Of a DNA stretch of 64,000 bases, positions 32,475 through 56,540 are shown piece after piece. Below the pieces are notes generated by a model that made no database searches, had not been told where the DNA came from, and worked only from the letters and a program-made list of their open reading frames with translations. Made by a program: the position numbers and the translations under genes. Position 1 is the first letter of the stretch. Each line of letters starts with the position of its first letter. The stretch lies in the IMG/VR virus record IMGVR_UViG_3300033067_001661, positions 205,624-269,623 of that record; one strand, 5' to 3'. The DNA comes from a virus (taxonomy: Duplodnaviria; Heunggongvirae; Uroviricota; Caudoviricetes).

Positions 32475-35400
32475 TTATCTTCTAAAAGTCTGTCTTAGAT
32501 CCACGTTTGGATCTTCCTGAGCGAGCTTGTTCGCCTTATCTAACTTGAACAAACTCTGTATGGAATCCTTCAATTCCTCACCAATTTTTCTTTGGTTACT
32601 ACGCTCAGAGATTACTAAAGGCTTTTCTGAACCTTTCGCAACGGTGTCAAGTCCTTTCTTGGAAGCTCCAAAGAGGGCAGTTTCAAGATCCTTGAGGTCA
32701 GAAGGCTCATAACGAGCAAGCTTCTCTATTTCAGAAGCAAGCTTGTCAACGGAAATCATTCCCGCTTTGAGCTTACGACCCGCAACTCTTGTAGCAGCCT
32801 CTTTCTTAGCCGCCAAGGACTCTGCATCGCCACCAGCAATGACCGTTCCCTTATGCGCCGTTTGCTTTTCAGGCGCATTCTTTTCATTCTTATCATACTT
32901 AGCATTCGTTCCGCCGCCAGCAGGAATGCTTGGAGCATCCTTCTCAGCCTTTGGTACGCTTACTAATGTTTCTTTTTCATGTCCCATGAAGCTAGAATCT
33001 CCAGCTTCAACCTTGCCAATATCAGCAGACTCCTGAGGAGTTATTGGATTACCACTCTTTGGATGATCCTTGTTAGCTGCATATGGCTTTGTATCTCCGT
33101 CTTCAGAAACAGGAGCAGCCTTTTCAAGCTTCTTGTCCGAAGCGGTCTTTGTTGCATTCAAGATTCTTTCAGCAAGAGCAGAAGTTCTAGCCTTGCTAGA
33201 AGCAGACTTACCCGCTCCTTGCGTTCCGCCAGTCATTTCATGTTCCTTCTCTGAGGTATAACCAAGCTCTTTCTCATGACCCATTTCGCCGCCGCCAGCC
33301 TCAAAGTTAGCCTTTGGCTTGCTGTTGTCATATCCAGCGTCTTTTTCGCCGCCCATTGTGGCGTCTCCGCTAAATACTTCTGGATCCTTAGCGTCAAACT
33401 TTTCCTCATTGCCCATAGTTCCGCCGTCCTTAACCTTGCCGAAATCTTCGGTATGGTCTTGAACGTTCTTATGAGTTACTTCCTTGGCAATCTTGCCTTG
33501 AGAAGCAAGAACCTTCATAACGCTAGACAAGTCAAGATTGATTTCGCCGGAGCTAGAAATCTTGCCCTTTCTAAATGCGTTTGTTGCGGACTCGGCCTGA
33601 GCCATAAGCTTGAACTCCTCTTTATCTTCTGAACCTTCTTCGCTGTCATTCGAGAAGTCGCTAGAAGAATCCTCTTTTTCTTCTGAATTTTCTTCAGAAG
33701 GCTCGGAAGATTCACCTTCGCCCTCAGAAGATTCGCCTTCAGAAGACTCTCCACCAAACGGATTAGAAGAAGGCTCTTCAACGGAAACCTCAGACTCGCC
33801 AGTTTCAGGAGCGCCTCCCATGTCGCCGCCCTCTGGGGCGACTTCAACGGAAACGTCTTCCTTAAGTTCAACTGGGTTTGAATCAACTACGCCAGGCGCT
33901 TCTTGAACAGCGTCTTGAACAGCGTCAAGAGCGCCGCCCACCGCAGAACCAACTTCTTGAGTTGCGTCTACAGCGGTTTCAAGAGCTTGGTCAGCAGCTT
34001 GGTCTACACCTTCGGCAACTTCGCCAGGAAGGGAGATTGTTGCAGTTCCATCAAGAGGAGCGTTGTGATGAGGCTCGGCAGCAGGATTCTCTCCCTTTGC
34101 CGTATCTATAGCAGCGTCAAACTGCTCTATAACATCAAGAGGGAGTTCGATTGTAATAGTTCCCGCCATTGGGTCGCCACCACCAAGCTCTCCTCCTACG
34201 TCCCCTCCAACATCGCCACCCATATCTCCGCCCATATCGCTTGCAAACGGATCTACGTCGCCTCCAAGTTCGCCACCCATATCGCCGCCCATGTCTCCCT
34301 CAGGAGATGGAACGCCGTCAGTTGGGGACGGAGGAACTTCAGAACCGCCAGAAAGCTCATCAGCAAGATGATCTTCAAACTGAGCATACTTAGCCTTGAG
34401 TTGGTCGCAAACAAAGCAAGCTTGCTTCATGGAGAACTTTCTAGAGCGTACAAAATCTTCTACGCAAGTAACCATAAGGTCTTCGTTCTTCCATATGGAA
34501 GCAAGCTTGATGGCAACGTCATTAGCATAAACGCCAGCGGTAGAAAGCTTCTGGCAAACACAGTCTGCAAGATTCTTTCCTTCGCATGGACCGCTCATTG
34601 CAAGAGCGTTTTCGCCATACTTACGAGCAATCTTCTCTCGGCAAGTTTCGATTGGGAACTTACCTTCAAACGCCGCGGTCTTCTTGAGGCCCGACAAAAC
34701 AGAACTCTTAGAAGCTGTCTTGACAGGAGAAAGAAGGCCCTTATCCTTCATAGCCATGATTGCGTCACCCTTATCGAAGAGCATCATGGAATCAAAAGTA
34801 TCTTCGCTAATACCGGCGGACTTGAGAGCCTTCATAAAGGCGCTCTTCTTACGACGGCAGCTTTCGCAGCCGCGAGTAAGAGGCTTCGCTTCAAATCGCC
34901 ATTCGGCAAATACAGCCTTCTTTCCGCCCTTGTCTACGCCAGCAACATGAACTTCATAAGTAGCGCCCGTATCCAAGCACAAGAACTTATTGTTGCTAAT
35001 CTTCATAACGCTTGTTGAGCCAGTATAAGGACTGATAGAGCCAAGGCTCCATTCAATACCCTTAGCCTTTGCATCTTCAGCAGCCTTCTTAAGCATTGCT
35101 GGGTTCAAACGAGTCATAGCAGCAACTGGCAAGCTTGCAGGTTCTTCGGCTTCTGGAAGAGCAAAGCCTTCGCCGCCCTCCTCGCCGCCACCAAGTCCAG
35201 CCTCGCCAGCTTCCTCACCCTCGCCTTCGCCAGAGTCAAGCAAGCCAGGATACTTAGTAATCTCAAGCTCAACCTTATAAGCAAACTCAGCGGAGCAGTT
35301 ACCGCACTTACCCTTGCCGTCTAGAACATCAACGTCGCTAGAACCGCAAACTGGGCAAATAGTGCCAGGTGGCTTTGGTTGCATATCGCCTTCGCCGCCG

Positions 35401-38400
35401 CCCATCATGTCGTCTTCGCCTGCGCCAAGCTCATCGCCAGGACCGCTTAGGCTTTCAGCAGCAGGAGCGCCTCCCATTCCAGCGTCTGCGCCAGGCATAG
35501 TTGCTCCCATTCCGCCAGCAGGACCGCCGCCTCCCATACCGCCACCCATCTGTCCGCCCATCATCTGGGCTTCCTTAAGAAGGTTGGCTCTGTTAACAGA
35601 ACGAGCAGTCTTATTTGTTCCTTGAGGCTTCTGTGTTGCAGTCTTGAACTGTCCGCTCAAAACAGAAGCAAAAGCCTTCTTCTCTGCGTCCGAGCAAGAT
35701 CCCTCTTCCTTGCAATCAGCCTCAAAGATTCCAGCTTCCTTGTCCAACTTGACGTTAGTAACAACGAATGGAACTTCGATATGGCTCTTTGCGAAAGTAA
35801 AGAGAGCATTCATGAATTCTGTTTGATTGTCTGGGCTTACCTTGACATCTTCTGTAAGGGTTCCGCAAATCTTATAAAGACCGTCTTCTGGACGATCAAG
35901 TTCAGCAAAGGCTTGACGGAAAGCATCTTCTTTGCTTACAACTGTTTCTTCAGAAGAATCTTCGGCAGAAGCGAGCTTGGTATGAGCCAAAGTCTCAGCA
36001 GCAGCAAAAGCCTTCTTATCGGAAGCAACAAACTTGATTGCGTCAACAAAATCCTCAGCCTTGAGGTATCCAATGTTATCACCCATAGAAGCCAAGAGAG
36101 CGTCAACGCTTCTAACCTTGCTACCGCTAGTAGAAGCTACCTTAGCAAAGTAGTTCTTGCGATTTCTTTCAGCAAGACGAGCCTTAACCTTGACAGGGGA
36201 TGCGTTGATAAGAGCAAGATATCCAGCCTTGATAGAAGAGAACGGAGAAGAAGAAATCTTGCTTACAGCCGCAGAAACCTCGGCAGGAGTAAGGTTGTAA
36301 TGAGCAATCGCGTCGGCAACTGCATTGGAAGCGGCCTTAACCAAATCCTTAGCAGATGAAGCCCAACGAGCAGAATCGGTCTTTCCTTCTGGAGCAGCCT
36401 TCTTCTGTTCGTCAAGCTGAGCTTGAGTTGTAACTTCAGGAGCGGTCCACTTATGAGACTTCTGCAAAGACTCTAGCTGAGCCTGAGTTGTCTTTTCTGT
36501 GTAATCCTTACTAATAGAAGTAGAAACTCTGCGGCTCATTTCTGTCCACTGAGCTTCAGTAATAACCTCTGGGTAGCTATCCCAACGAGCAATGTCGTCA
36601 TGCTCAATCGAATCAAGCTGAGCTTGGGTAATAACTTCAGGAGCGTTACCCTTACGAAGCTGATTATCGTCAGAGGTTGTATCATTAACTGGCTTAAGCT
36701 CGCCGTCGCCGTTGAGTTGAGCCTGTGTCGTTACGGTTGGAGCCTTGTCTTCTCTAGGGTGAAGAGGGCCAGCGTTATCAAGTTGCTTCTGAGTGGTAAC
36801 TTCCAACTGGGAAGCCTCTCCTCCAGCTATCTTCGTGGTTTTTTGTGCAGACATATTAACTCCTGATTCTTTCTGATATTGACTTAAAACAATCTTAGCA
36901 GCCTCTTGAGGATTTGAGGAAGCAAGGGCCTTTATTTCATCGCCAAATTCTTCAGCAGAAGCCCAGCTTACAAGCTTATTATCTTTGAACTTTCCGAAAA
37001 CTAGACCGGAACCTTCTACAGTGGCAACAACAACTCTTGTGTCGCCGTTTACAAATTCAGCAATATGTTCAGATTCAGCCACTTCCTTACTCCTTTGTGC
37101 TAGCAGAACGATTGAAGCGCGCAATGCAGAGCTAACACTGGCTAGCTTACTGCTAATATTCTCGCCTTGCTTCAAAAATTCCTTCTTTAATTCTTCAGAT
37201 GCTCCAACAAAACTTGGTCTTGTAACACTTCCCAATCCAGCCATTGAGCCAGATTGAGGGCTTCCCTGAGGGGCGGCTTGGGGTTGAGGCGACTGCGTTA
37301 AGCTCTGAGCGCCTTGTCCAACTTGACTTGGATTAGATACTTGCTGAGCAGCGCCTGCACCTGTCATTGAAGGGTCTAAAGACATAACATTTCCAAGAGC
37401 AACAGCCTGCTCTGGAGGAGATGGAAGTTGGGCGTAACCCATTTCCGTTAGTTCGTCAGTAAGAGATTGAACTTTAGCAAGTTGCTCAACAAGATCACTT
37501 ACATAATCTAGCTGAATTTGCTGTTTTTGAGCCATCATCGAACGAGCAACATGCTCCATAAGATTCATGGCTTGAGTAAGAGCTTGAAGTTCTGCCTTGC
37601 CAGCAGTCTTTTCTAGCGAACCGTCTTTCATTGTATCAACAGCACCGCTAAGTCTCGAAGCAACCTTCCTCAATTCTTCAATCTTATCAGCAACCCTTGT
37701 CTTTACATTATCAAGATTGAGAATATCACAAACCAAACAATCATGGCATGCTGGATTTACAACAAATGAATCCTCGATAAACTTGATATCATAATTCCAT
37801 TCATATACTTTTGCTTCTTTATGAATAAGTTCGTGTTCTTCATTCTTTTTCTTGCCATCTAAAGGGCATGGGTCTGTAGGCTTGCAAGGGCTATCATGAT
37901 ATTTACATTCATATTTGCCGCTAATTTTCCTATTTTTACCACCCTTTATATGAGTGCAGAACTCGTCTGCTGTATGGGCCTTATTATGGCAGATTGAGCA
38001 GATAGAATAAGTAACTTGAGCGCCCATTGACGTACCAGTAATGTATCCTTCTTCGATACCTCTAGCAAGCCTTGGATAAGCGGCTCTATCAACCATATTG
38101 ATACAATAAACACCTTTAGAAGGCTCGTCATACCAAGAGTGAACGACCTTACCTCTTGCGTTCTCTACATTATCATTTTGATGATTTACAAAGACAGGAA
38201 CGCCAACGAAAGTATGAGCAGCCTTCTTAAGTTCTTCTTCAGAAAAACAATCGCCGTTATCATTTACTTCGTTTGCCTTAATAGCAAATACCTTAACAAA
38301 TAGATTGTCTGGATTCTTCTCAATTGCTGCTTGTATATCAAATCCGCCAAGATCTGTTTTCTTGGTTTTATCAATAGAAGCAACTTTAATACGAGAAGTA

Positions 38401-38486
38401 TTGTAGTAATCCCATGCGCCTCCCTTAGGAACATGAAGAGCCTCAACGCTCATCTGAGTATTAGTTTTTGCTCGTTTTTCAAACAT
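32475..38486 (-). CDS. Prohead protease fused to a giant scaffold/core region (2003 aa)
   Basis: N-terminal NDNGDCF...VFVNHQN...GTSMG (His/Ser of HK97/herpes-type prohead proteases) plus a CSICH..FCTH Zn motif; position between portal and capsid genes. Confidence 0.8.
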   Translation of the reverse strand: MFEKRAKTNTQMSVEALHVPKGGAWDYYNTSRIKVASIDKTKKTDLGGFDIQAAIEKNPDNLFVKVFAIKANEVNDNGDCFSEEELKKAAHTFVGVPVFVNHQNDNVENARGKVVHSWYDEPSKGVYCINMVDRAAYPRLARGIEEGYITGTSMGAQVTYSICSICHNKAHTADEFCTHIKGGKNRKISGKYECKYHDSPCKPTDPCPLDGKKKNEEHELIHKEAKVYEWNYDIKFIEDSFVVNPACHDCLVCDILNLDNVKTRVADKIEELRKVASRLSGAVDTMKDGSLEKTAGKAELQALTQAMNLMEHVARSMMAQKQQIQLDYVSDLVEQLAKVQSLTDELTEMGYAQLPSPPEQAVALGNVMSLDPSMTGAGAAQQVSNPSQVGQGAQSLTQSPQPQAAPQGSPQSGSMAGLGSVTRPSFVGASEELKKEFLKQGENISSKLASVSSALRASIVLLAQRSKEVAESEHIAEFVNGDTRVVVATVEGSGLVFGKFKDNKLVSWASAEEFGDEIKALASSNPQEAAKIVLSQYQKESGVNMSAQKTTKIAGGEASQLEVTTQKQLDNAGPLHPREDKAPTVTTQAQLNGDGELKPVNDTTSDDNQLRKGNAPEVITQAQLDSIEHDDIARWDSYPEVITEAQWTEMSRRVSTSISKDYTEKTTQAQLESLQKSHKWTAPEVTTQAQLDEQKKAAPEGKTDSARWASSAKDLVKAASNAVADAIAHYNLTPAEVSAAVSKISSSPFSSIKAGYLALINASPVKVKARLAERNRKNYFAKVASTSGSKVRSVDALLASMGDNIGYLKAEDFVDAIKFVASDKKAFAAAETLAHTKLASAEDSSEETVVSKEDAFRQAFAELDRPEDGLYKICGTLTEDVKVSPDNQTEFMNALFTFAKSHIEVPFVVTNVKLDKEAGIFEADCKEEGSCSDAEKKAFASVLSGQFKTATQKPQGTNKTARSVNRANLLKEAQMMGGQMGGGMGGGGPAGGMGATMPGADAGMGGAPAAESLSGPGDELGAGEDDMMGGGEGDMQPKPPGTICPVCGSSDVDVLDGKGKCGNCSAEFAYKVELEITKYPGLLDSGEGEGEEAGEAGLGGGEEGGEGFALPEAEEPASLPVAAMTRLNPAMLKKAAEDAKAKGIEWSLGSISPYTGSTSVMKISNNKFLCLDTGATYEVHVAGVDKGGKKAVFAEWRFEAKPLTRGCESCRRKKSAFMKALKSAGISEDTFDSMMLFDKGDAIMAMKDKGLLSPVKTASKSSVLSGLKKTAAFEGKFPIETCREKIARKYGENALAMSGPCEGKNLADCVCQKLSTAGVYANDVAIKLASIWKNEDLMVTCVEDFVRSRKFSMKQACFVCDQLKAKYAQFEDHLADELSGGSEVPPSPTDGVPSPEGDMGGDMGGELGGDVDPFASDMGGDMGGDVGGDVGGELGGGDPMAGTITIELPLDVIEQFDAAIDTAKGENPAAEPHHNAPLDGTATISLPGEVAEGVDQAADQALETAVDATQEVGSAVGGALDAVQDAVQEAPGVVDSNPVELKEDVSVEVAPEGGDMGGAPETGESEVSVEEPSSNPFGGESSEGESSEGEGESSEPSEENSEEKEDSSSDFSNDSEEGSEDKEEFKLMAQAESATNAFRKGKISSSGEINLDLSSVMKVLASQGKIAKEVTHKNVQDHTEDFGKVKDGGTMGNEEKFDAKDPEVFSGDATMGGEKDAGYDNSKPKANFEAGGGEMGHEKELGYTSEKEHEMTGGTQGAGKSASSKARTSALAERILNATKTASDKKLEKAAPVSEDGDTKPYAANKDHPKSGNPITPQESADIGKVEAGDSSFMGHEKETLVSVPKAEKDAPSIPAGGGTNAKYDKNEKNAPEKQTAHKGTVIAGGDAESLAAKKEAATRVAGRKLKAGMISVDKLASEIEKLARYEPSDLKDLETALFGASKKGLDTVAKGSEKPLVISERSNQRKIGEELKDSIQSLFKLDKANKLAQEDPNVDLRQTFRR

Positions 38487-40374
38487 TTTCGTTCAAACTC
38501 CTAATAATTCTCTTAGCCAGGCTAGACGCTTGAGCGTCAGGATGATCAGGTCCAACATCTTCAACCGGAGGGCGAAGAGGAGGAGGTTGCTTAATAGGCT
38601 TTATCGGATCTCTTCCTACAAACTGATTAAACGCCTTGTCTGCTCTTTGAACACCTTTTGATTCTGGACTAAGATTCGGTAGCGGATCTTGTTCAGTTAG
38701 ATTTCCTTCATTATCTTCAACAATTCTACCTCCCTCGCCAACGATAATTTTCTTCATCTCTGCAACTGCGGCAGAAAGAGAAGGTAATCCGCTTCTAACT
38801 TCTCTCCAAGGAGAAAGGATAAGTTTCTTTTGTCCAAGCTTAGTTTCGTAATATCTTTCGCTAGCCATCATTCTTGGTATAGATATTTGTTTTGCAACAA
38901 CGACAAATGATTGTCTGTTCGTAACAACAGAACCTCCCCAAAACTCGGGTTCTTCATTTGGAACGTCCTTATATTGAACCATATCTTGCTTACCAACAGT
39001 CTTTGCTTGACCAACATTGCGGCCTGTTGAAAAATCAGGACCAGCCATGTAAATAATGAAGCCTTCTAAAGCTGTATGAGAATTTTGAGCCTTGACAATA
39101 CCGCCATTCTCGTCAAAAGAATAACGGTCGGTCTTTGTGTCAAGCCATTGTTTCAATTGCTTCAATGCGGGAACAGAATAAGCAAATTCTTCTTTATTCT
39201 TCGGGTTCATTATCTTTTGAACCGTATTCTCATCGTCTACTGAATAAACAAACTTATATCCACTCGCAACCTCAGAAACATCAAGGTCTTCACCCTGAGC
39301 CTGAGCAGTTACTCTATAAACCTTACCAAGCGTATTTTTATTAGCTAGAGCGGTTACTTGTTCTTGCGATAAATAAAGCTTCTCGCCAGTAACTCTTTCA
39401 ACCCTCTCGCCTGTTTCTTTGTTAATAGCTGGACGACCGCCTGCTCCATACCTTATCTTTTTCTGAAGATACATTGCGCCTGATTCTGGGTCTGCAAAAA
39501 TTCCCCAAATGAACTTTGCTTGCTCAGGACTGTTTTTGATAATCATATCAGCGTTGTTGACGTAACGTATATTCAAAGACTGAGGGTTAAACTGAGCGGC
39601 GGCAGCAGCCTGCTCATCAGGAACAAGGCCTTCTACAGGAGAAACATAAACAGCACTACGATTCATAATGATAGGATCATTGAAGAATTTCTTCATCGTA
39701 ATCGTATTCGTAGTAACGGTTGAATCAAAAACATTTGTAACGCCATGAACGTTTACAATACCAAATGTAAAACCCTCGCCAGACGGAACAACTTGAAAGT
39801 TTCCATTAGTCGAGTTAGGATACTCTTTCCCACCAACATTCTCTTGAATCTGACGGGGTATCTTGTTATATTTTTGCGACACATGATACTGAAGACCATT
39901 TGCGGCCAAATCTTGATAAGCATAGCCAAAAATAGAAAACCAATGCTTAGAACCAATACTCTTGTCTATCTTGTTTACACCAGAAAAGCCTGAAGCGCTC
40001 GAAGGAAGCTGTAAGCCATACTCTCTCGCAAACTGCGCTGTCTGCAAAAGTTCAGGACGCTCTCTTTGAAGATCTTTAATCTCAGAATCACCAATCAATC
40101 GATCTTCAGCATAAGCGATACGAAGCATACCAGAGTATTCGTTTGACCTAGCAGCAGGAAACCTCTTAAAAGCCCTATCAAACTCGGCTATTTGCCTCTG
40201 TATGCTTTGTTTTACAACATCTGGTAACTTAGAAAGATGTTGCTTAAGTCTATTTCTATCAAATACATGAAAATCAAGACTTCGATTCTTGATATTGATA
40301 GAGCCAGGCATGGCGGGCATATCCGCCTGCTTTAGCAAAAGACTACTAATAATTGACTTTGGATCGCTACTCAT
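38479..40374 (-). CDS. Hypothetical head-associated protein (631 aa)
   Basis: Coupled ORF between portal and protease; LLKQAD near the N-terminus. Confidence 0.75.
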   Translation of the reverse strand: MSSDPKSIISSLLLKQADMPAMPGSINIKNRSLDFHVFDRNRLKQHLSKLPDVVKQSIQRQIAEFDRAFKRFPAARSNEYSGMLRIAYAEDRLIGDSEIKDLQRERPELLQTAQFAREYGLQLPSSASGFSGVNKIDKSIGSKHWFSIFGYAYQDLAANGLQYHVSQKYNKIPRQIQENVGGKEYPNSTNGNFQVVPSGEGFTFGIVNVHGVTNVFDSTVTTNTITMKKFFNDPIIMNRSAVYVSPVEGLVPDEQAAAAAQFNPQSLNIRYVNNADMIIKNSPEQAKFIWGIFADPESGAMYLQKKIRYGAGGRPAINKETGERVERVTGEKLYLSQEQVTALANKNTLGKVYRVTAQAQGEDLDVSEVASGYKFVYSVDDENTVQKIMNPKNKEEFAYSVPALKQLKQWLDTKTDRYSFDENGGIVKAQNSHTALEGFIIYMAGPDFSTGRNVGQAKTVGKQDMVQYKDVPNEEPEFWGGSVVTNRQSFVVVAKQISIPRMMASERYYETKLGQKKLILSPWREVRSGLPSLSAAVAEMKKIIVGEGGRIVEDNEGNLTEQDPLPNLSPESKGVQRADKAFNQFVGRDPIKPIKQPPPLRPPVEDVGPDHPDAQASSLAKRIIRSLNENV

Positions 40375-40814
40375 GCCTTAACATGCTCCGGTATATCTGC
40401 GTTCACAAGAGACTCTCTGTTATACGGAACTTGACCCTTTGGAACAGGAGTACCCCATCTTTGACTTGCGTAAATAAGCGCGCCTTTCATTGTTGGAAAA
40501 TACTCTCCATAAGGGCTATATGTCTTTGTATCAGGATCTTTTGTAAATTCTTCAATAGGAATCTTTTTGATACCTGCAAAGAAAACCTTACCTACATTAT
40601 GCTGCATAGAAGGACCAACAACAACATAATAGATTGAGTTTGTTGTATAATCATGTCCTTCCCATCTATAGTAAGCACCAGGGCCAACTTGTTCTTCGAA
40701 CTTTTCCTTAAGAGGCTTTGATCTTTCTCGGTATATTTCTTCCCACTTAATACCACGGTCCTTGATTCGTTTACGACCCGCGGTTTTTTCCAAGTTGTAA
40801 ACTAAATCGTTCAT
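40371..40814 (-). CDS. Hypothetical protein (147 aa)
   Basis: Coupled ORF; LEKTAG at the N-terminus. Confidence 0.75.
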   Translation of the reverse strand: MNDLVYNLEKTAGRKRIKDRGIKWEEIYRERSKPLKEKFEEQVGPGAYYRWEGHDYTTNSIYYVVVGPSMQHNVGKVFFAGIKKIPIEEFTKDPDTKTYSPYGEYFPTMKGALIYASQRWGTPVPKGQVPYNRESLVNADIPEHVKA

Positions 40815-43098: not shown

Positions 43099-43521
43099 TT
43101 ATAGACCCAAATGATTCGCTGATCTCTCAACGTTGGATAAATGATTTTCGTCAACAACTTGAATGTCGTCGTCCGAAATCCTCTTCCTATTTGGTTTCAT
43201 CGGTTTAACTGCTGGATTCGTTGTTCTTGGAATCAAAGATTGAGCCGCAGCAGCAAGACCTGGAACATGAACTTTGTTAATAGGAACACCCATCATGAGC
43301 GTCTCATGAGGGTTTTGGCCTTTTTGCTCGCCTTGTTGATCTCTTTTTCTTTGTTTAGGAAGCGCTCTTATTTTTGCAATATCCGCTCCGCAGTTAATGC
43401 ATACAACAGCAGTCGGAGTGTTATCCGAACTGCATGTTGGACATACTTTTTCGAGAGCTAGAGGCTTAACTTTGTCTATAGGAGGAAGAGACGGTATCTT
43501 AGGAAGAGACTGAGCTATCAC
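43099..43521 (-). CDS. Zinc-ribbon protein
   Basis: CPTC-x10-CINCG. Confidence 0.7.
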   Translation of the reverse strand: MIAQSLPKIPSLPPIDKVKPLALEKVCPTCSSDNTPTAVVCINCGADIAKIRALPKQRKRDQQGEQKGQNPHETLMMGVPINKVHVPGLAAAAQSLIPRTTNPAVKPMKPNRKRISDDDIQVVDENHLSNVERSANHLGL

Positions 43522-46330: not shown

Positions 46331-47008
46331 TTACTTATCAGCGAACATTGCGTCAACGTACTCAGATGGGTAAAGCTTCTTCCAGTAGTTCTTCCATTCA
46401 TTCTTAGTCTTGGAGTCAAGGTTTGCAATGCGAACCATTCTACGAGAAGCAGAAGCTTCCTTCTTTTCCTCAGCCTTGGCCTCGCCCTTACTTTCAGACT
46501 TCTTAGAGCCTTCGCTACCGTCGCCGCTCGTTGGAGCGCCGCAGCACTTATCAACCTCATGGGTTACGCCCTTGTTCTCTGCTGGAATCTCGGAGTTATC
46601 AGCCTTCTTTGCAACAGAAGCCTTCTTCTTTTCGCCTTCTGGCTTGCCGGTATTTGTGCCGCCAACAGGATCCATCTCCTGCTTCTTGACATGCATTTCA
46701 CCGTCCTTTTCCTTGCAGCATTCATCCTTAGCAACCTTAACTTCCTTCTCAGCGGAAGCCTTGGTTTCTTCTTTCTCTGCGCCTTCTACCTTTTCTACTT
46801 CCTTGCCGTCTTTCTTCTCTTCCTTCTTACCGAATGGAGGAGCTTTCTTGTCGCCAAGGTTAGAAATATTGGCAGTCTTTTCGGCCTTCTCTGGCGCAGC
46901 GGTTGAGGCTGTCTTGGAGAAAGCTGCGTTACTTGCAGCGAGCTTTTGTACAAATTCGCCGAAGTTCTGGGCCTTACCAGTCGAGATCTTGTTCGTATAA
47001 AACTTCAT
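46331..47008 (-). CDS. Lys/Glu-rich disordered protein with C-terminal YWxxLYPxxY motif
   Basis: AAGGAG RBS; ends WKNYWKKLYPSEYVDAMFADK. Confidence 0.8.
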   Translation of the reverse strand: MKFYTNKISTGKAQNFGEFVQKLAASNAAFSKTASTAAPEKAEKTANISNLGDKKAPPFGKKEEKKDGKEVEKVEGAEKEETKASAEKEVKVAKDECCKEKDGEMHVKKQEMDPVGGTNTGKPEGEKKKASVAKKADNSEIPAENKGVTHEVDKCCGAPTSGDGSEGSKKSESKGEAKAEEKKEASASRRMVRIANLDSKTKNEWKNYWKKLYPSEYVDAMFADK

Positions 47009-47089: not shown

Positions 47090-48370
47090 TTAAGGTTTTC
47101 TTGGAGCAAACCTACCTTTATTTCTTGGTTGTTGCGGGCGACCTGCTGGCGCTGCTGGCGGCGTTGCCGCTGCTGGCGGCGTTGCCGCTGCTGGTGGTTG
47201 TCCATAAAGTCCTGCGCCTGGTGGCGGATTGTAATTAGGCCCTGTCATTACGGCTCCAGGAGGCATTGCCCCGATAGGACCGCCTCCCGCTGCTGGCGTT
47301 GCTGGTGCCGCTCCTCCTAACGGATTAGAAGATGCTGCTGGATTGACTCCAGGCGCTGCGGGCGGCGTTCCGCCTGCTGGAGAACCGCTTGGAGCGGCTG
47401 GAGCAGAAGGAGCGCCTCCCGATGGAGAACCGCCATAATTGCCTCTCAATATAGAATTCAAAGAAGTTAGAGTATTAGGCCAGTTCTTCCTTACGCCTTG
47501 AATATCTTTAGCCTTTATCAAACCAGAAACATTACTAAGATGCTGTATCGCTGTTGAAGCTTGCTGCTTTTGTTGAGGAGTTGAGTTTGGATCATTTGCA
47601 ACGATATTTAATTGCTGAGAAGCCGTCGCTATACCACCAGAAAGCCCACCCCAAGTTTGATTTGCTTTTTGATAAGCATCTTCAAAAGCTTTGAAACTAT
47701 TGTCCAAATCCGTTATTGTTTGCTTAAGCTTTCCGGTATAGGCTTGATTACTACCCCAATTCTTAACACCCTGCCCAACGCCTTTGAAAAAGTCCATTAT
47801 ACCAGCTTCTTTTACCATTTCTTCAGCAGCGGCTGTAAGCTTTTCAGCTATTTCTGGGTTAGAAACAAGTCTAGACGCAATATCCATGATTTCATTGCTT
47901 GCGGAAATCATAAGCTCATTTGGCTCATTTGCAACTTCTTCAATAGAAGCATAAACAGCAGAACCAATATCTAAGCCTTCCGCAACCTTCTCTTCAACCT
48001 TGCTAGCAATCTTTGCGTTAACTTCTTGAGAGAAAGCATGAAGCTCAGAACCAACCTTAATGTTGTTTTCTGAGCCTGCGTATTTGTCCCATTTAGAACC
48101 ATCATTGTTCAATGACTCAACGTATTCTTTATGGCATTCAGTCCAAACCTGTTGAGCAGACTTATTTGGAGAAGAAGTTCTTTTCTGCCTATAGCAATTA
48201 CCCCAACATCTGGAGTTTCTAATAGCATAGCCCTGTATACCAACATACTGAGCCGTTTTGACTTCAAAGGTCTTGTTTGCAACCTTATCAACCTTATCTG
48301 CTATAGCTCGTAAGCCTTGAGCGTCAAGCGCTTCTGCTGCTTCAACAAGCAATCGAATGATATTATCCAT
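47090..48370 (-). CDS. Head-associated protein (426 aa) with Pro/Ala-rich tail
   Basis: GGAG RBS; EVKTAQY and MVKEAGI; CWGNCY..C Cys cluster; 18-nt tandem repeats near 47146-47200 encode PPAAAT. Confidence 0.8.
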   Translation of the reverse strand: MDNIIRLLVEAAEALDAQGLRAIADKVDKVANKTFEVKTAQYVGIQGYAIRNSRCWGNCYRQKRTSSPNKSAQQVWTECHKEYVESLNNDGSKWDKYAGSENNIKVGSELHAFSQEVNAKIASKVEEKVAEGLDIGSAVYASIEEVANEPNELMISASNEIMDIASRLVSNPEIAEKLTAAAEEMVKEAGIMDFFKGVGQGVKNWGSNQAYTGKLKQTITDLDNSFKAFEDAYQKANQTWGGLSGGIATASQQLNIVANDPNSTPQQKQQASTAIQHLSNVSGLIKAKDIQGVRKNWPNTLTSLNSILRGNYGGSPSGGAPSAPAAPSGSPAGGTPPAAPGVNPAASSNPLGGAAPATPAAGGGPIGAMPPGAVMTGPNYNPPPGAGLYGQPPAAATPPAAATPPAAPAGRPQQPRNKGRFAPRKP

Positions 48371-49384: not shown

Positions 49385-49392
49385 AGAATTAC

Positions 49393-49417: not shown

Positions 49418-49425
49418 TCTTAGGT

Positions 49426-49450
49426 AGGAGTTTTGAACACCTTTTTGTAA
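49426..49450 (+). promoter_or_regulatory. Candidate promoter AGGA-N17-GTAA for the plus-strand island
   Basis: Back-to-back with the 49393-49417 motif. Confidence 0.45.
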
Positions 49451-49479
49451 AACTAAGTGACCTTAAGCGGAGGCTCCAA

Positions 49480-50720: not shown

Positions 50721-50733
50721 GGAGTTGTTGATT

Positions 50734-52020: not shown

Positions 52021-52350
52021 TTGTTCAATAAAGTTGATATCCTCGTCGTCAACATTAATAGCAATTTGATTCATAGAGCTAGAATCGGAATTAATCACAA
52101 CGTAATCGTTATGACTTTGAATCCATTTCTCTATATCTTGCTTGTTGCTAACCTCTTCATAGACATTAATGTAAACGTCTTCAGGTTTTGGCATTAGACG
52201 AGCGGTTTGAATATCAAAAACAAAAGAAAGCTTACCGCAACGATGAGCTTCCATCGACTCTGTTTCTGGGTTGTACCAAAAATGAGTCGATTCAACTTTC
52301 TGCGCTTTCTTGATTCTTCTTTTTTCAATCTGTAGAAGTAAGATCCGCAT
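51988..52350 (-). CDS. Hypothetical protein (120 aa)
   Basis: Last gene of the minus-strand run; its end overlaps the convergent GT4 end. Confidence 0.65.
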   Translation of the reverse strand: MRILLLQIEKRRIKKAQKVESTHFWYNPETESMEAHRCGKLSFVFDIQTARLMPKPEDVYINVYEEVSNKQDIEKWIQSHNDYVVINSDSSSMNQIAINVDDEDINFIEQSLNFAGIRYD

Positions 52351-52708
52351 TCTTAACTCTCAAATACCATCCAACAAGTTCTTCTTTTGAGGCTTTCTTC
52401 TCTAAGGCAAAAGAATCATCATTGAGAATCATTACCTTCAAAGCTTGAGCGCCCTTCTCTGTAACCTTGAGGTACTTACCCTGATCTTCGACAAGACCAG
52501 ACTCTACCATTTTCTTGAGTTCGCCAGACGCTAAATTAGCAGGCTTCAAAAACTTACGGTTCGAGAGCTTTTCCGTATCAGACCACATAGCATACAACTG
52601 CTTATTGATGCCATCGCCCCTATTGACAAGTCTTGCTCTTGCGTCTTGCAGCGCTGGCATTATTTGTATGAGTATATCAATCAAAGATTGTTGAGCAGTT
52701 TTTTGCAT
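52325..52708 (-). CDS. Possible winged-helix protein (start moved to MQKTAQQ)
   Basis: ELKKMVESGLVEDQGKYLKVTEKG resembles a wHTH recognition helix plus wing; ATG 1 nt after the upstream TAA. Confidence 0.5.
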   Translation of the reverse strand: MQKTAQQSLIDILIQIMPALQDARARLVNRGDGINKQLYAMWSDTEKLSNRKFLKPANLASGELKKMVESGLVEDQGKYLKVTEKGAQALKVMILNDDSFALEKKASKEELVGWYLRVKNADLTSTD

Positions 52709-52709
52709 A

Positions 52710-52949
52710 TTAGAACCCCACTTGAACTCCGAATGAACGAAGCTTCTTTCGTATTTCCATTTGTATAGAATCAAGAGCCATAACATCAGCCTGAGAAAGT
52801 TGTGTTATACCATTTAAGCCTAATGTTGTAAAAGCTTGCTGAAACGTTCTAACCCTAGGATCTATCTGGTTAGGTTGATTAGGGTTCTTGAGCCTTTTGG
52901 GATCAAATTTCAAAGTTTGCATTTGAGATGTTTTATACCAATTACTCAT
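52710..52949 (-). CDS. Hypothetical protein (79 aa), MSNWYKTSQ N-terminus
   Basis: Coupled ORF. Confidence 0.7.
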   Translation of the reverse strand: MSNWYKTSQMQTLKFDPKRLKNPNQPNQIDPRVRTFQQAFTTLGLNGITQLSQADVMALDSIQMEIRKKLRSFGVQVGF

Positions 52950-53686
52950 GGTCGCATTGTGCCTCTAGGATATGGACTCTCATCTTCTCTTTTGCCCCAC
53001 AAATAAGGTTCATTACGAAGCTCTCTCCATTTGAATCCTTCATTAACCCAAGGATCATGATATCCTTCAAGACCCATTTTATATCTACTCTGATTCCTAA
53101 TATCTCGGCCTCTTCCTCTAACCTCTTCATCAATAGCTGACCAAGAGAAAACTCTTTCTTGCATTGGAACGTCTAAATTAGAATAAGGTCCATGAACGCC
53201 CTTTGCAGAAACTTCTTTCTGTCCTGGAAACTGAACAACCAAAAGCAAAGCTCTAATATAGAGATTCTTGGCAATCAAATGGCTTACCCATTCAATACCT
53301 AACTTGTACTCTATGATTTTAGACATTACTCTATACGAAAAAGAGTTGATATCTCTACACAAGGCTTGCCCAACTTGTCTTTGAATCTCGTCAAATCTAA
53401 GAAGACCAGGATACAAATAAAGCATTCTATAGAGGCCTTGTAAAGCGTGAACAAAAACTCCGTCGATACCCTCGGGAGGATTCGTCTTAGTCTCTGTCTG
53501 TTCAGACAAAAGAGAACAAACTTCATCCCAAAGTTTCTCAATAACTTCGTAAGAAGCTTTAGCCTTAGCCTTAAACAATCCTGCGCAATGAGAAACTGGG
53601 AGGCTCTTGCTATCAAAAGAAACAACACCATTACCTTTTAGAGTAATGTTATGAACCAACAGTTCTTTTTTGATCTCGTCATACAA
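52946..53686 (-). CDS. Hypothetical protein (246 aa)
   Basis: TTG start with GAGGA RBS. Confidence 0.75.
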   Translation of the reverse strand: MYDEIKKELLVHNITLKGNGVVSFDSKSLPVSHCAGLFKAKAKASYEVIEKLWDEVCSLLSEQTETKTNPPEGIDGVFVHALQGLYRMLYLYPGLLRFDEIQRQVGQALCRDINSFSYRVMSKIIEYKLGIEWVSHLIAKNLYIRALLLVVQFPGQKEVSAKGVHGPYSNLDVPMQERVFSWSAIDEEVRGRGRDIRNQSRYKMGLEGYHDPWVNEGFKWRELRNEPYLWGKREDESPYPRGTMRP

Positions 53687-54296
53687 GGGTTGTATCCTCT
53701 ATTGGCCTTCTCTTAACTGCAAGAGTAATATGGAAATCATGGTCTTTTATCCTTGGCGATAAGTTATACTTCTGCCTTAGTTTTTCAAGCTGAGGAGCCT
53801 CAACCTTCAAAAACCAAACAGACTGCATCTCTTCCCAACCGTCAGGATTATCAACCTGTTCTACTCCGGTTATTTTATAGTTTATCTTCTTACCTACATC
53901 TTCAAATCGAATACCTCGCTCAGAAACTTCCTTAGTCTTAATGACTGTTATATGAGCGCCAATATCATCATAATGTCTTTCGTTCTTAGGCGGCTTTTCA
54001 GCTTCATTACCCAAGAAAGGCATAAATCCTGCAAATATAGAGTTAGGAACGTCTACATAAACAAACCCGTCTCTAGTCTGTCTGAGTTCGCCAACAAAAA
54101 CAACATCTTTAGCATCACTAGCTATCTTCTTCAACGCATTAAAAGTAGCAGCCAACCGATTTTCATAATCAGCGGTCATCTTTTTGGCATAATCTTCAGG
54201 ATAAAGAGTGGACCAGTAAGTTGTTAGCTTTACTTGATCTTTCTTTCTCCTTTTGAGCCAATTCTTAGGAACATTTTTGGAAGCCAACTGTAACAT
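53679..54296 (-). CDS. 2H phosphoesterase with an N-terminal YWxxLYPxxY leader
   Basis: Two HxT motifs (AHITVI, FHITLA) with the spacing of the 2H superfamily. Confidence 0.8.
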   Translation of the reverse strand: MLQLASKNVPKNWLKRRKKDQVKLTTYWSTLYPEDYAKKMTADYENRLAATFNALKKIASDAKDVVFVGELRQTRDGFVYVDVPNSIFAGFMPFLGNEAEKPPKNERHYDDIGAHITVIKTKEVSERGIRFEDVGKKINYKITGVEQVDNPDGWEEMQSVWFLKVEAPQLEKLRQKYNLSPRIKDHDFHITLAVKRRPIEDTTLV

Positions 54297-54299
54297 TTA

Positions 54300-54902: not shown

Positions 54903-54913
54903 GTGCTTTTTCC

Positions 54914-55354
54914 TTATATGTTTCTAAGTCTCTTTCTAAGACCCCTAAGTACGCCATCGCCACCATTCAAATTGAATGGCTTTCTGTCCCTATTATCGTC
55001 TATCTGCCGAGTAACCGTCTGATTTCTTCCCAAAGCTGCGTCCGAACCAGAAGAACCTCCTTGACCCTGATAATCGTCATGCAATTCTAAACCATAATCA
55101 GTTACAATGCCAGTTCCATTATCATTCTTTGGACGACCTTCATCGTCTGTAATAAAAGGCTGATCTGTGGGCCACTCTTTATTCTGAGAAAAAGGACCAC
55201 CACCAGTTTCGCCTGGCCTTAAAAGATCATCACCCGCGCCGCTATTCGGTTTACCCTTTGACTTTCTATAAGGATCAGTCAATAGGGGATCTGAAGGATT
55301 AAATGCGGTTGGCGGATTTCTTCTAGCTGTTTTTGATAAGTTAAAAGGGGGCAT
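54914..55354 (-). CDS. Disordered protein (start moved to MPPFNLSKTAR)
   Basis: GAGGA upstream of ATG 55354; FNLSKTA parallels FNLKKAQ of the neighbouring gene. Confidence 0.7.
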   Translation of the reverse strand: MPPFNLSKTARRNPPTAFNPSDPLLTDPYRKSKGKPNSGAGDDLLRPGETGGGPFSQNKEWPTDQPFITDDEGRPKNDNGTGIVTDYGLELHDDYQGQGGSSGSDAALGRNQTVTRQIDDNRDRKPFNLNGGDGVLRGLRKRLRNI

Positions 55355-56540
55355 CTTCAATAGTATCCTCTTGTGGATTTTGCGGTTCGATTGCATTATC
55401 AACAGGAGATTCAGGCTCGCTTGGTGCTGTGGTTTGACCAATTCCTCCAGTATAAGAAACGTCTCTACTTGTTACTCCAGAAATACCAGACATAGGATCA
55501 GGGAAATCGAATCCAGAATCATCATTTGGATCTACAGGAGCATTTGGATCAGTAGGAGCATTTAAGTCTACAGGAGCATTTGGATCAGTCATATCGTCTA
55601 CAGGAGGCGAGAAACCGCTCTGTGTTGCCCAATAATGCTCGTCGCCGCTAACTGTTGGATTTCCGTCCATAAAATCAGCTTCCCTATCCTGAGAGCTAGC
55701 AGAAGGCCCTGGTGTTGGCGATGGAGGAACGTTAGGGTCAAATGGCGGATTATTAGGATCAGCAGAAAGAGGGTCTTCTGTTTGAGCTAAAGACATAAGA
55801 ATACTTACCTTGTCTTTATTGATCGCCGAAACAATCTCTTTCTCTGAAGCAGTAAGGCCTCTACCTTCGCTACTAGCCTTTAGGTAAATACCAAACAAAA
55901 GCTTGTCTGCACTCTTTAGAGAAGCTGTAATCTCAATTGGCTTCTCTTTCTTGTTCATTGGCTTTATGTCAAGCTCTTTACCAAGATGCTCTCTATTTGT
56001 TGCCGCATCAGGATCGTGAGGAAGACCATCAAGGTTTCCAAACCTATGAGGACTATTTTGAAGTTGACTACCCTTCTCTGGTAAGTTAACCATAACTTTT
56101 GTTGGCTCACCATCGAGTTGAGCGCCTACAAACTTATCCCAGAAAGAGGTATCCGCTCCCTTATTTGCCTTTGAAAAAGCATCTCTAAACTTTCTATCAT
56201 TAGCATGAGCAAGAGCGTCAATTGGAGAAACGGTATAGTTATCTTCTCCGCCCTTGAACTGCCTATGAGGATACAATGGAGAATCAGAATCTTCTATCGC
56301 TCCTTCTGTTATCTTTTCAGAAACAGAGGCCTTACGACGAACTTCGTTCAAAAGACCTTCATGAGTTTCTGGACTTTCGCCCAAAGAACGACGGTCTGCC
56401 TCAAGAAGCCCATTGATAGACTTGACACTACCGCCTCCCTCTAGCGAAAGGTTATACTTCTTAGAATGAGACGGAACAGCAGCCGACTGAGGCGTTACGC
56501 TGTTATTGATTACCTGTGCTTTTTTCAAGTTAAAAGTCAT
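55341..56540 (-). CDS. Head-associated protein with acidic Pro-rich tail (start moved to MTFNLKKAQ)
   Basis: GGAGGA RBS; ATG 1 nt after the terminase TAA. Confidence 0.75.
   Translation of the reverse strand: MTFNLKKAQVINNSVTPQSAAVPSHSKKYNLSLEGGGSVKSINGLLEADRRSLGESPETHEGLLNEVRRKASVSEKITEGAIEDSDSPLYPHRQFKGGEDNYTVSPIDALAHANDRKFRDAFSKANKGADTSFWDKFVGAQLDGEPTKVMVNLPEKGSQLQNSPHRFGNLDGLPHDPDAATNREHLGKELDIKPMNKKEKPIEITASLKSADKLLFGIYLKASSEGRGLTASEKEIVSAINKDKVSILMSLAQTEDPLSADPNNPPFDPNVPPSPTPGPSASSQDREADFMDGNPTVSGDEHYWATQSGFSPPVDDMTDPNAPVDLNAPTDPNAPVDPNDDSGFDFPDPMSGISGVTSRDVSYTGGIGQTTAPSEPESPVDNAIEPQNPQEDTIEDAPF

What the first reader, a model, noticed from the sequence alone, without database searches (positions are those of the whole stretch)
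32475..56540. K-x-A-[S/Q/A/G] motif across head-region proteins: candidate prohead-protease processing and cargo code
Seen: about 20 copies by manual count in the protease/scaffold (KVAS, KTAG, KLAS, KIAG, KEAQ, KTAS, KYAQ, KLAQ and others), often at domain boundaries; I estimate roughly 5 by chance. The motif also lies near the N-termini or linkers of neighbours: portal ITKAAQ, LLKQAD, LEKTAG, LAKVAQ, LKKEAQ, IRKQAQ, FSKTAS, EVKTAQ, MQKTAQ, LKKIAS, and variants FNLSKTAR, FNLKKAQ and WYKTSQ. It looks sparse in the fibre genes. Established: T4 gp21 and phiKZ gp175 cut many head proteins at short motifs ending in Glu. Inference: this phage uses a Lys-x-Ala specificity, and short aromatic-K-x-A leaders act as removable capsid-targeting signals for a large ejected proteome that includes enzymes.
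Basis: partly seen in the sequence, partly recalled or inferred. Interest (0 to 1): 0.8.

Follow-up and report, generated by a model that had tools for sequence, protein, structure and literature searches.

The report
Head-protein cut-and-address motif, huge phage
In this huge phage, a relative of Bacillus phage G, the short motif Lys-x-Ala-Ser/Gln is about five times too frequent, and only in the head-assembly proteins; it is most likely the cutting signal of the phage's own capsid-maturation protease, and at protein starts a removable loading tag, though no cleavage has been shown.

Summary
K-x-A-[SQAG] occurs 24 times in the 2003-aa protein (6.7±2.5 in shuffles) and 30 times in its head neighbours (10.7±3.2). 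Reversed, shifted and substituted controls are flat. Genome-wide, K-x-A-[S/Q] is 34 observed against 6.4 expected in the head cluster and 52 against 45 elsewhere. The true core is K-x-A-[S/Q], often with a hydrophobic residue at -2; A or G at the fourth position is not specifically favoured. Fibre genes are at chance, not depleted.

The enrichment recurs in 23 related metagenomic head modules, in phage G, and in 116 diverse giant homologues (952 against 176 expected). Many sites are conserved islands in diverged flanks. The N-terminal domain of the 2003-aa protein has the herpesvirus assemblin / T4 gp21 protease fold. Its two boundary motifs are the only disordered stretches of a confident model.

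Best reading (about 0.6): this is the protease's recognition motif, probably cut after Ala, and short N-terminal tags ending in it work like the T4 capsid-targeting sequence. Cleavage, packaging and ejection are inferred. A "large ejected proteome" is not supported; only about a dozen candidates exist here. The scan had already noted the W-Y-K-x-A-Q tag elsewhere in this genome (e1-1881128), destination unknown. This work links that tag to the head protease.

The parts
32475..38486 (-). 2003-aa protease-scaffold polyprotein with 24 K-x-A-[SQAG] sites
   Evidence: ORF; motif count; full-length orthologues of 1890-2396 aa in 20 or more loci; 116 giant homologues
37716..38354 (-). Protease core, residues 45-257: assemblin / T4 gp21 fold with invariant H102 and S153
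38376..38387 (-). Site 34, K-V-A-S: N-terminal boundary of the protease, candidate activating self-cleavage
   Evidence: K and A invariant in 13 of 13; a site at this offset in about 80 of 106 representatives; lies in the pLDDT<50 segment 32-39
37599..37610 (-). Site 293, K-T-A-G: C-terminal boundary of the protease, candidate release site
   Evidence: K 1.0, A 0.83, G 1.0 conserved; pLDDT<50 from residue 295; NNKTAG also follows the protease domain in mycobacteriophage Catera gp94
36822..36833 (-). Site 552, K-I-A-G: conserved K-x-A island in a gap-rich linker
   Evidence: K/R and A kept in 0.92 of homologues; flank conservation 0.35
35565..35576 (-). Site 971, K-E-A-Q, directly before a Gly/Met low-complexity stretch
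   Evidence: Q invariant, A 0.92, K 0.83
34710..34721 (-). Site 1256, K-T-A-S, invariant in all homologues
   Evidence: K, A and S 1.0, T 0.92, flanks 0.47
32517..32528 (-). Site 1987, K-L-A-Q, 17 residues from the C-terminus; the Ala is invariant, the Lys is not
   Evidence: possible counterpart of the assemblin maturational site (inference)
40811..43087 (-). Portal protein; the motif is concentrated in the N-terminal leader and C-terminal extension, not the core
   Evidence: Portal families; across 21 orthologues the leader has 18 against 2.6 expected and the core 2 against 3.3
42932..42943 (-). Portal site 49, K-A-A-Q, at the start of the conserved portal body
   Evidence: [K/R]-x-[A/S]-Q in 15 of 15 sequences with a variable upstream leader; phage G portal has K-M-A-S at residue 55
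40371..40814 (-). 147-aa protein with the N-terminal tag MNDLVYNLEKTAG
   Evidence: F/Y-N-L-x-K-x-A-G conserved in orthologues
43518..44744 (-). 408-aa head protein with internal sites at 93 (YFSLAKVAQ) and 252 (YNLKKEAQ)
   Evidence: Site 252 has K and A kept in 14 of 14 with flank conservation 0.25; site 93 has the extended motif conserved
46331..47008 (-). 225-aa Lys-rich protein with K-T-A-S at residue 32
   Evidence: Kept in 9 of 10 orthologues; flanks 0.33
47090..48370 (-). 426-aa protein with K-T-A-Q at 38 and K-S-A-Q at 70
   Evidence: I-K-T-A-Q-Y-V-G conserved wherever aligned
55341..56540 (-). 399-aa protein whose true start gives the N-terminal tag MTFNLKKAQ
   Evidence: GGAGG at -10 of this ATG and no RBS at the longer ORF's start
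54914..55354 (-). 146-aa protein with the N-terminal tag MPPFNLSKTAR (variant, R at the fourth position)
   Evidence: Start with GAGG at -13
52710..52949 (-). 79-aa ORF starting MSNWYKTSQ (variant of the W-Y-K-x-A-Q tag, Ser in place of Ala)
   Evidence: Six-frame search
52325..52708 (-). 127-aa protein probably starting MQKTAQ
   Evidence: The start lies 1 nt after the stop of the upstream ORF; the RBS is weak
53679..54296 (-). 2H phosphoesterase with K-I-A-S at residue 57, upstream of the enzyme domain (97-197)
   Evidence: PF22547 2.9e-13; motif; orthologue conservation not testable
30818..31711 (-). Major capsid protein (context); no motif
   Evidence: phrog_2522 3.6e-61; 49% identical to phage G gp27; 0 against 2.1 expected over 17 orthologues

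Best explanation
K-x-A-[S/Q], in extended form hydrophobic-x-K-x-A-[S/Q/G] and often aromatic-N-L-x-K-x-A-Q, is the recognition motif of the phage's own prohead serine protease. That protease has the assemblin / T4 gp21 fold and forms the N-terminal domain of the 2003-aa protease-scaffold polyprotein. Inferred mechanism: inside the assembled procapsid the protease frees itself at the sites flanking its fold (residues 34-37 and 293-296). It then cuts the rest of the polyprotein and other internal head proteins at conserved and lineage-specific sites. It trims the portal's N-terminal leader at residue about 52. It also removes short N-terminal leaders (M-x-F-N-L-K-K-A-Q, M-N-W-Y-K-x-A-Q) that first serve to bring proteins into the procapsid, as the T4 capsid-targeting sequence does. 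The cut is most likely after the Ala (P3 = Lys, P1 = Ala, P1' = Ser/Gln). This follows from the P3-x-P1 spacing of T4, phiKZ and SPN3US sites and the Ala-Ser bond cut by assemblins. Shown here: enrichment, specificity to the head module, conservation, the protease fold, and disorder at the boundary sites. Inferred: cleavage itself, the scissile bond, targeting and ejection.
For: (1) Enrichment is confined to the head cluster: 34 against 6.4 expected, versus 52 against 45 in the other 98,947 residues of the genome. Controls are flat.
(2) The same enrichment occurs in all 23 related loci, at 33-100% protease identity. It also occurs in phage G head proteins gp4, gp7, gp11, gp12, the portal and the protease tail. 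In 116 diverse giant homologues it is 952 against 176 expected, with the reverse motif at 0.87x.
(3) Sites are conserved islands in diverged flanks: giant residues 34, 293, 552, 971 and 1256; portal 49; 408-aa protein 252; 225-aa protein 32.
(5) In a confident model (pLDDT 84) the only segments below 50 are 32-39 and 295-300, which are the two boundary motifs.
(6) Known relatives behave this way. T4 gp21 is activated by N-terminal self-cleavage, degrades core proteins to peptides and clips short leaders (PMC9958956). SPN3US gp245 cuts after A-x-E with Ser preferred at P1' and auto-cleaves its own terminus (PMC10052503 and PMC5694885). Assemblin is an N-terminal protease fused to scaffold, with release and maturational sites ending in Ala (PMC4498786).
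(7) Positive control: the same scan on T4 core proteins recovers [L/I]-x-E at 37 against 14.9 expected, with the reverse at 17 and mature proteins at 25 against 20.
(8) In distant L023, a 479-aa protein next to the protease has 12 motif copies 20-30 residues apart, as expected of a scaffold degraded to small peptides.
(9) In the portal, sites lie in the leader and tail and not in the core.
(10) Ser is encoded by both TCN and AGY codons within the motif, so selection acts on the protein.
Against: No experimental cleavage data exist for this phage or any relative that I could read; the phage G virion mass-spectrometry paper is not held. The extended upstream consensus (aromatic-N-L) is longer than the subsites usually read by this protease fold and fits a docking motif as well. 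Phage G gp20 and gp21, possible scaffold proteins, have no K-x-A-[S/Q]. Cluster C mycobacteriophage Catera, with a homologous 1369-aa fusion, shows no enrichment, so the motif is clade-specific and not tied to the fold. Motif avoidance in the major capsid protein is not significant (0 against 2.1). About half of the 24 sites in the giant protein are not conserved, and some sit in well-conserved, probably folded segments (87, 1327) where cutting is unlikely.
Confidence: 0.6

Rival explanations
1. The motif is a docking peptide that is not cleaved. It would be a short linear motif binding one common receptor in the procapsid (capsid inner surface, portal or scaffold), present in many copies in the scaffold for multivalent binding and at N-termini of cargo for recruitment. 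This may also be true together with cleavage, as for the T4 capsid-targeting sequence.
For: The conserved part extends well upstream of K-x-A (aromatic-N-L-x-K). Copies are regularly spaced in the L023 479-aa protein. The motif occurs at the very N-terminus of unrelated proteins.
Against: Docking does not explain why the motif brackets the protease fold in disordered segments across the whole family. It also does not explain why the small residue pair Ala-Ser/Gln is the most constrained part, which matches the bond cut by assemblins.
Confidence: 0.2
2. The motif is read by a different enzyme, such as a host or phage housekeeping protease (Clp or Lon type) or a lysine-modifying or cross-linking enzyme, and not by the prohead protease.
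For: Lys is the most conserved residue. Phage G encodes ClpP and ClpX, which were detected in particles.
Against: The signal is confined to the head module next to the protease gene and tracks that protease family over 116 diverse homologues. No modifying enzyme was found in the cluster. The self-flanking sites point to autoprocessing.
Confidence: 0.08
3. The motif is a by-product of composition, helical periodicity or shared ancestry of repeats, with no function of its own.
For: The proteins are rich in Lys and Ala and partly coiled-coil or low complexity. About half of the sites are not conserved.
Against: Global and local shuffles, reversed and shifted controls and conditional dipeptide tests all reject composition. 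The contexts of the sites are diverse and not copies of one repeat. Sites are conserved where flanks are not. Enrichment holds across lineages with 33-50% identity.
Confidence: 0.04

Closest known systems
T4 gp21 prohead protease with its [L/I]-x-E sites and the capsid-targeting sequence (CTS) of internal proteins IPII and IPIII
   Different: Lys-x-Ala in place of Leu/Ile-x-Glu. The protease is fused to about 1700 residues of scaffold-like polyprotein rather than being a separate 212-aa protein. The tags have no sequence similarity to the T4 CTS. Nothing is shown experimentally.
Herpesvirus pre-assemblin (UL26 type): an N-terminal protease fused to scaffold, with release and maturational sites
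   Different: No detectable sequence similarity. Lys is favoured at P3. There are dozens of sites rather than two or three. The catalytic third residue is not established. A Cys cluster (C163, C166, C177, C247, C250) is inserted in the fold. A nested in-frame scaffold gene is not supported.
phiKZ gp175 and SPN3US gp245 prohead proteases of giant phages ([S/A/G]-x-E, A-x-E)
   Same: Giant phages in which many head and ejection proteins carry propeptides with several motif copies. The protease auto-cleaves its own terminus, the portal is processed, and Ser is preferred at P1'.
   Different: A different motif (P1 Glu there, probably Ala here), a different phage lineage (HK97-type small capsid protein, phage G clade), and the fused polyprotein architecture.
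Bacillus phage G gp19 (annotated head maturation protease) and its head module
   Same: Closest cultured relative: capsid protein 49% identical. K-x-A-S is enriched in gp4, gp7, gp11, gp12, the portal and the gp19 tail. K-T-A-A lies directly before the gp19 protease core.
   Different: The phage G protease is a separate 300-aa protein. Ser dominates the fourth position. gp20 and gp21 lack the motif. Published processing data, if any, could not be read.

Membership tests
Assemblin / T4 gp21 / HK97 gp4-type capsid maturation serine proteases | The characteristic protease fold | tested here: met
Assemblin / T4 gp21 / HK97 gp4-type capsid maturation serine proteases | Conserved catalytic Ser and His | tested here: met
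   H102 and S153 (in S-M-G) are invariant in 62 sequences. Inteins are inserted at or next to the Ser motif in L020-L022. Residue-by-residue equivalence to the solved active sites was not checked.
Assemblin / T4 gp21 / HK97 gp4-type capsid maturation serine proteases | Third catalytic residue (His in assemblins) | tested here: inconclusive
   H179 is nearly invariant in 14 sequences but is not in the invariant list of the 62-sequence alignment. No coordinates were available to check geometry.
Assemblin / T4 gp21 / HK97 gp4-type capsid maturation serine proteases | Gene lies between portal and major capsid protein in the head module | tested here: met
   Portal at 40811-43087, protease fusion at 32475-38486, capsid protein at 30818-31711.
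Assemblin / T4 gp21 / HK97 gp4-type capsid maturation serine proteases | Proteolytic processing of head proteins at a defined motif | not testable with these tools
   Only indirect evidence: enrichment, conservation and disorder.
Pfam PF14550 Peptidase_S78_2 (XkdF-type) | Score at or above the curated gathering threshold (24 bits) | tested here: not met
   20.9 bits for residues 57-121; 3 of 14 relatives match at E<0.01. PHROG phrog_18299 'head maturation protease' matches at 2.6e-10.
T4-type capsid targeting sequence (CTS) | The same short N-terminal leader on otherwise unrelated proteins | tested here: met
   MTFNLKKAQ, MPPFNLSKTAR, MNDLVYNLEKTAG and MSNWYKTSQ in the window. MGWYKQAS, MWYKLAQ, MWYKFAQ, MDWLKKAS and MNNYFDITKIAQ elsewhere in the genome, on a kinase-like protein and two helicases among others. 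The extended motif occurs 10 times against 1.3 expected.
T4-type capsid targeting sequence (CTS) | The leader ends in the cleavage motif of the phage's prohead protease | tested here: inconclusive
   The leaders end in the same K-x-A-[Q/S] that is enriched in head proteins and flanks the protease. That this is the cleavage motif is inferred.
T4-type capsid targeting sequence (CTS) | Tagged proteins are found in virions with the leader removed; the tag suffices to load a foreign protein | not testable with these tools
   No proteomic data are readable. The supplementary table of the phage G particle proteome is not held.
Herpesvirus UL26-type protease-scaffold fusion | N-terminal protease and C-terminal scaffold in one polypeptide, with a release site directly after the protease | tested here: inconclusive
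   The architecture and a conserved K-T-A-G in a disordered segment after the fold are present. Scaffold function and cleavage are inferred.
Herpesvirus UL26-type protease-scaffold fusion | Nested in-frame gene giving a protease-free scaffold | tested here: inconclusive
   Four in-frame internal starts with an RBS were found, no more than in another frame (4, 4, 0). Their conservation was not examined.

The most novel reading that the evidence does not exclude
A whole clade of huge phages (phage G relatives, with more than 2,600 protease representatives in public data) uses one portable 'address and cut' code: hydrophobic-x-Lys-x-Ala followed by Ser/Gln. It is read by an assemblin-fold protease made as part of a roughly 2000-residue polyprotein that is diced into ten or more products inside the procapsid. 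The same code, placed at the start of any gene, loads enzymes such as helicases, a kinase-like protein and a 2H phosphoesterase into the capsid for injection. This would be a second, independently evolved capsid-targeting system, and a bacteriophage counterpart of the herpesvirus Ala-Ser maturation sites.
Probability: 0.3. Interest if true: 0.8.

Novelty: new variant of a known kind. Interest (0 to 1): 0.62.

Why it matters
Motif-directed processing by prohead proteases is known mainly from T4 and the phiKZ/SPN3US group, all with Glu at P1. A predicted Lys-x-Ala specificity would broaden the known range of these enzymes. It occurs in an assemblin-fold protease fused to a giant scaffold polyprotein and is conserved across a very large, mostly uncultured clade. 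It would also tighten the phage-herpesvirus parallel, since both would cut after Ala within a protease-scaffold fusion.

Practically, it gives a sequence rule for predicting mature ends of head proteins and candidate packaged proteins in huge-phage metagenomes. It gives a destination to the orphan W-Y-K-x-A-Q tag noted earlier in this genome. It is directly testable in phage G, which is in culture and already has virion mass-spectrometry data.

Tried and rejected
- **Protease-substrate co-fold.** Protease residues 40-292 with the invariant K-T-A-S segment scored 0.14 against a mark of 0.32: no verdict, not evidence either way.
- **First AF2 model.** With 14 sequences it was too poor to use (pLDDT 53). 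It was replaced by the 62-sequence model.
- **PDB sequence search.** A profile search found nothing relevant. Only fold comparison links the domain to assemblin/gp21.
- **Unavailable sources.** The phage G virion mass-spectrometry paper (J Mol Biol 2020, PMC7316594) is not held. The supplementary proteome table of the 2025 phage G paper is not held. So the motif could not be checked against detected peptides.
- **Literature.** Searches found no description of a K-x-A specificity or of these tags. Absence from this library is not proof of novelty.
- **Mycobacteriophage Catera.** This homologous fusion shows no K-x-A-[S/Q] enrichment. The motif is therefore not a property of the protein family as a whole.
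- **Capsid-protein avoidance.** 0 against 2.1 expected, too weak to use.
- **Nested scaffold gene.** Internal starts are not more frequent in frame than out of frame.
- **A or G at the fourth position.** Rejected as part of the core motif: 1.07x and 1.25x after K-x-A across the family.
- **MIRKQAQ.** Rejected as a conserved site.
Full report
**Setting.** The window is the head and tail module of a 333,623-bp phage genome (window = genome 205624-269623). Almost all genes lie on the minus strand. The major capsid protein (30818-31711) is 49% identical to gp27 of Bacillus phage G, the 497-kb cultured megaphage. The gene order is:
- portal (40811-43087; portal families plus a C-terminal DUF559 domain);
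- a 147-aa and a 631-aa protein;
- a 2003-aa ORF (32475-38486);
- a 193-aa protein;
- the capsid protein.

Residues 40-187 of the 2003-aa ORF match a PHROG 'head maturation protease' (2.6e-10). They also match Pfam's XkdF-type serine protease, just under threshold.

- The giant protein has 24 K-x-A-[SQAG] against 6.7±2.5 in composition-preserving shuffles. The 20 neighbours between 38479 and 56618 have 30 against 10.7±3.2. No shuffle of 1000 reaches either count, and shuffling within 50-residue blocks gives the same result.
- Reversed, shifted and substituted control motifs are at expectation. So are the fibre genes (4 against 5.7), the capsid-protein group and the genes upstream of 56542.
- A scan of all three-letter patterns, with no prior choice, ranks K.AS (24 against 4.6, p about 1e-10) and K.AQ highest after Gly/Met low complexity, and only in the head region.
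- Among A-[S/Q] dipeptides, 28% have Lys at -2 in the head cluster against 8.7% expected. In the rest of the genome this is 7% against 6.5% (odds ratio 5.1, p about 7e-11).
- Genome-wide, K-x-A-[S/Q] is 34 against 6.4 expected in the head cluster and 52 against 45 over the other 98,947 residues.
- Ser in the motif uses both codon families, so the constraint is on the protein.

The fourth position is essentially S or Q (5.8x and 5.4x), with A and G near background (family-wide). The fibres are not depleted; they are simply Lys-poor.

**Conservation.**
- Twenty-three related IMG/VR head modules, with 33-100% identity in the protease domain, all show 3.5- to 6-fold enrichment and no enrichment of the reverse motif.
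- An exhaustive search found 2,630 representatives of the protease domain. Among the best 150, 116 are fusions of at least 800 aa. Together these have 952 K-x-A-[S/Q] against 176 expected (5.4x). The reverse is 0.87x and R-x-A-[S/Q] is 2.9x.
- Phage G has K-x-A-S in gp4, gp7 (5 against 0.8), gp11, gp12, the portal (residues 55 and 625) and the tail of protease gp19 (248, 274). It has K-T-A-A directly before the gp19 core. There are almost none in gp20-gp63.
- In a 13-sequence alignment of giants (39-78% identity), sites 34, 293, 552, 971 and 1256 are conserved islands in diverged or gapped flanks. About half of the sites turn over between lineages.
- In the neighbours, the portal keeps [K/R]-x-[A/S]-Q in 15 of 15 sequences exactly where the conserved portal body begins. 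The 408-aa protein keeps K-E-A-Q at 252 in 14 of 14 and Y-F-x-L-x-K-x-A-Q at 93. The 225-aa protein keeps K-T-A-S in 9 of 10. The 147-aa protein keeps F-N-L-x-K-x-A-G. MIRKQAQ is not conserved.
- Across 21 portal orthologues, the leader holds 18 sites against 2.6 expected and the core 2 against 3.3.
- A homologous 1369-aa fusion in mycobacteriophage Catera shows no enrichment, so the motif is clade-specific. Catera does keep N-N-K-T-A-G right after the protease fold.

**N-terminal tags.**
- Ribosome-binding sites place the true start of the 425-aa ORF at MTFNLKKAQ (window 56540, the finding's end coordinate) and of the 175-aa ORF at MPPFNLSKTAR.
- A 79-aa ORF starts MSNWYKTSQ, and the next gene probably starts MQKTAQ.
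- Elsewhere in the genome the tags MGWYKQAS, MWYKLAQ, MWYKFAQ, MDWLKKAS and MNNYFDITKIAQ head unrelated proteins. These include an AAA_33 kinase-like protein, an SNF2-type helicase and a UvrD-type helicase.
- The extended forms are 7 against 1.2 and 10 against 1.3 expected genome-wide.
The present analysis shows that its last four residues are the head-module motif.
- The distant L023 lineage has its own tags (MSNPYLEKAAS, MTNVYLEKIAA). It also has a 479-aa protein next to the protease with 12 motif copies 20-30 residues apart.
- In this genome the candidate tagged set is about a dozen proteins, not a large proteome.

**The enzyme.**
- A 62-sequence alignment gives a confident model of residues 1-300 (pLDDT 84.3, pTM 0.73). 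The core 45-257 is above 90. The only segments below 50 are 32-39 and 295-300, which are the K-V-A-S and K-T-A-G sites.
- All 50 best Foldseek hits are herpesvirus assemblins or T4 gp21.
- H102 and S153 are invariant. Relatives L020-L022 carry inteins at the Ser motif.
- A site at the offset of residue 34 is present in about 80 of 106 representatives.

**Interpretation.** Known members of this fold family behave as the model requires.
- T4 gp21 is activated by cutting off its own N-terminal nine residues. It degrades core proteins to peptides and clips short leaders from internal proteins, whose roughly 10-residue targeting sequence loads them into the core (PMC9958956).
- SPN3US gp245 cuts after A-x-E with Ser favoured at P1', processes the portal and its own terminus, and has several motif copies inside propeptides (PMC10052503 and PMC5694885).
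- Herpesvirus assemblin is the N-terminal part of a scaffold fusion. It frees itself at a release site and cuts a maturational site near the C-terminus, both after Ala (PMC4498786).
- As a control on the logic, the same scan applied to T4 core proteins recovers the proven motif: [L/I]-x-E is 37 against 14.9 expected, the reverse is 17, and mature structural proteins are 25 against 20.

I therefore read K-x-A-[S/Q] as the protease's recognition motif. The cut is probably after Ala, with P3-x-P1 spacing as in T4 and an Ala-Ser bond as in assemblins. The N-terminal tags would be targeting leaders ending in that site. Confidence is about 0.6.

**What remains open.**
- No cleavage, packaging or ejection is shown.
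- The long upstream consensus fits a docking role, alone or combined with cleavage (rival, 0.2).
- Phage G gp20 and gp21 lack the motif.
- Avoidance in the capsid protein is not significant.
- A protease-substrate co-fold gave no verdict.
- The phage G mass-spectrometry paper and proteome table could not be read. Prior experimental knowledge of phage G processing therefore cannot be excluded.
- The literature searches available found no description of this specificity.

**Verdict.** This is a new variant of a known kind, motif-directed prohead processing with targeting leaders. It has a new predicted specificity and a giant polyprotein architecture, and it is testable in phage G.

Noticed in passing
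L020:9995-16828, L021:10001-17191, L022:9461-16303 (relatives; not in the window): The giant protease-scaffold genes of three relatives carry Hint/intein-like insertions at or next to the active-site G-T-S-M-G serine. This explains their greater length (2277-2396 aa). Pfam Hom_end_hint, Hint and Intein_splicing hits support it.
   Followed up: partly
window 56542-59565 (-): The 1007-aa ORF just upstream of the finding contains an intein with a LAGLIDADG endonuclease (Pfam 2.7e-13 and 6.9e-13). The host protein is possibly the large terminase, but this was not checked.
   Followed up: no
window 32475-38486 (-), residues about 975-1050 and 1400-1450; also the portal linker and other neighbours: Gly/Met low-complexity repeats (M-G-G, G-x-M-G) are the most over-represented pattern in the head cluster (23 against 1.45 expected). 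They recur in relatives, and one follows the conserved K-E-A-Q site directly.
   Followed up: no
window about 36400-36830 (-), giant residues about 555-695: There are six copies of a P-E-V-T-T-Q-A-Q-L-like repeat (Q.QL 6 against 0.17 expected) between two conserved motif sites. Their function is unknown.
   Followed up: no
window 37716-38354 (-), protease core: Cysteines C163, C166 and C177 are invariant and C247 and C250 nearly so. Together with the C-S-I-C-H-N-K-A-H stretch they suggest a metal site inserted into the assemblin fold, which T4 gp21 and herpesvirus assemblins are not known to have.
   Followed up: no
genome 318867-321029 (-), outside the window (L033): A 720-aa ORF with no Pfam match has 4 K-x-A-[S/Q] against 0.31 expected and an internal N-W-Y-K-K-A-Q at residue 590. 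It is the only strong outlier outside the head cluster and possibly another internal head or cargo protein made of two tagged modules.
   Followed up: partly
L023:11575-13014 (+): In a lineage with only 33% protease identity and no giant fusion, the 479-aa protein after the protease has 12 copies of [L/M]-x-K-x-A-[S/A] spaced 20-30 residues apart. It looks like a scaffold built to be cut into small peptides.
   Followed up: partly
L025:8962-13071 (mycobacteriophage Catera gp94): Cluster C mycobacteriophages encode a 1369-aa protein, annotated as hypothetical, whose N-terminus is homologous (32% identity) to this protease domain. The protease-fusion architecture therefore extends to cultured actinophages, where it could be studied.
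   Followed up: partly
window 55341-56618 and 54914-55441 (-): The longest-ORF starts of these two genes overlap and lack ribosome-binding sites. The downstream ATGs at 56540 and 55354 have good sites, so automatic gene calls here are likely to be too long by 26 and 29 codons.
   Followed up: yes
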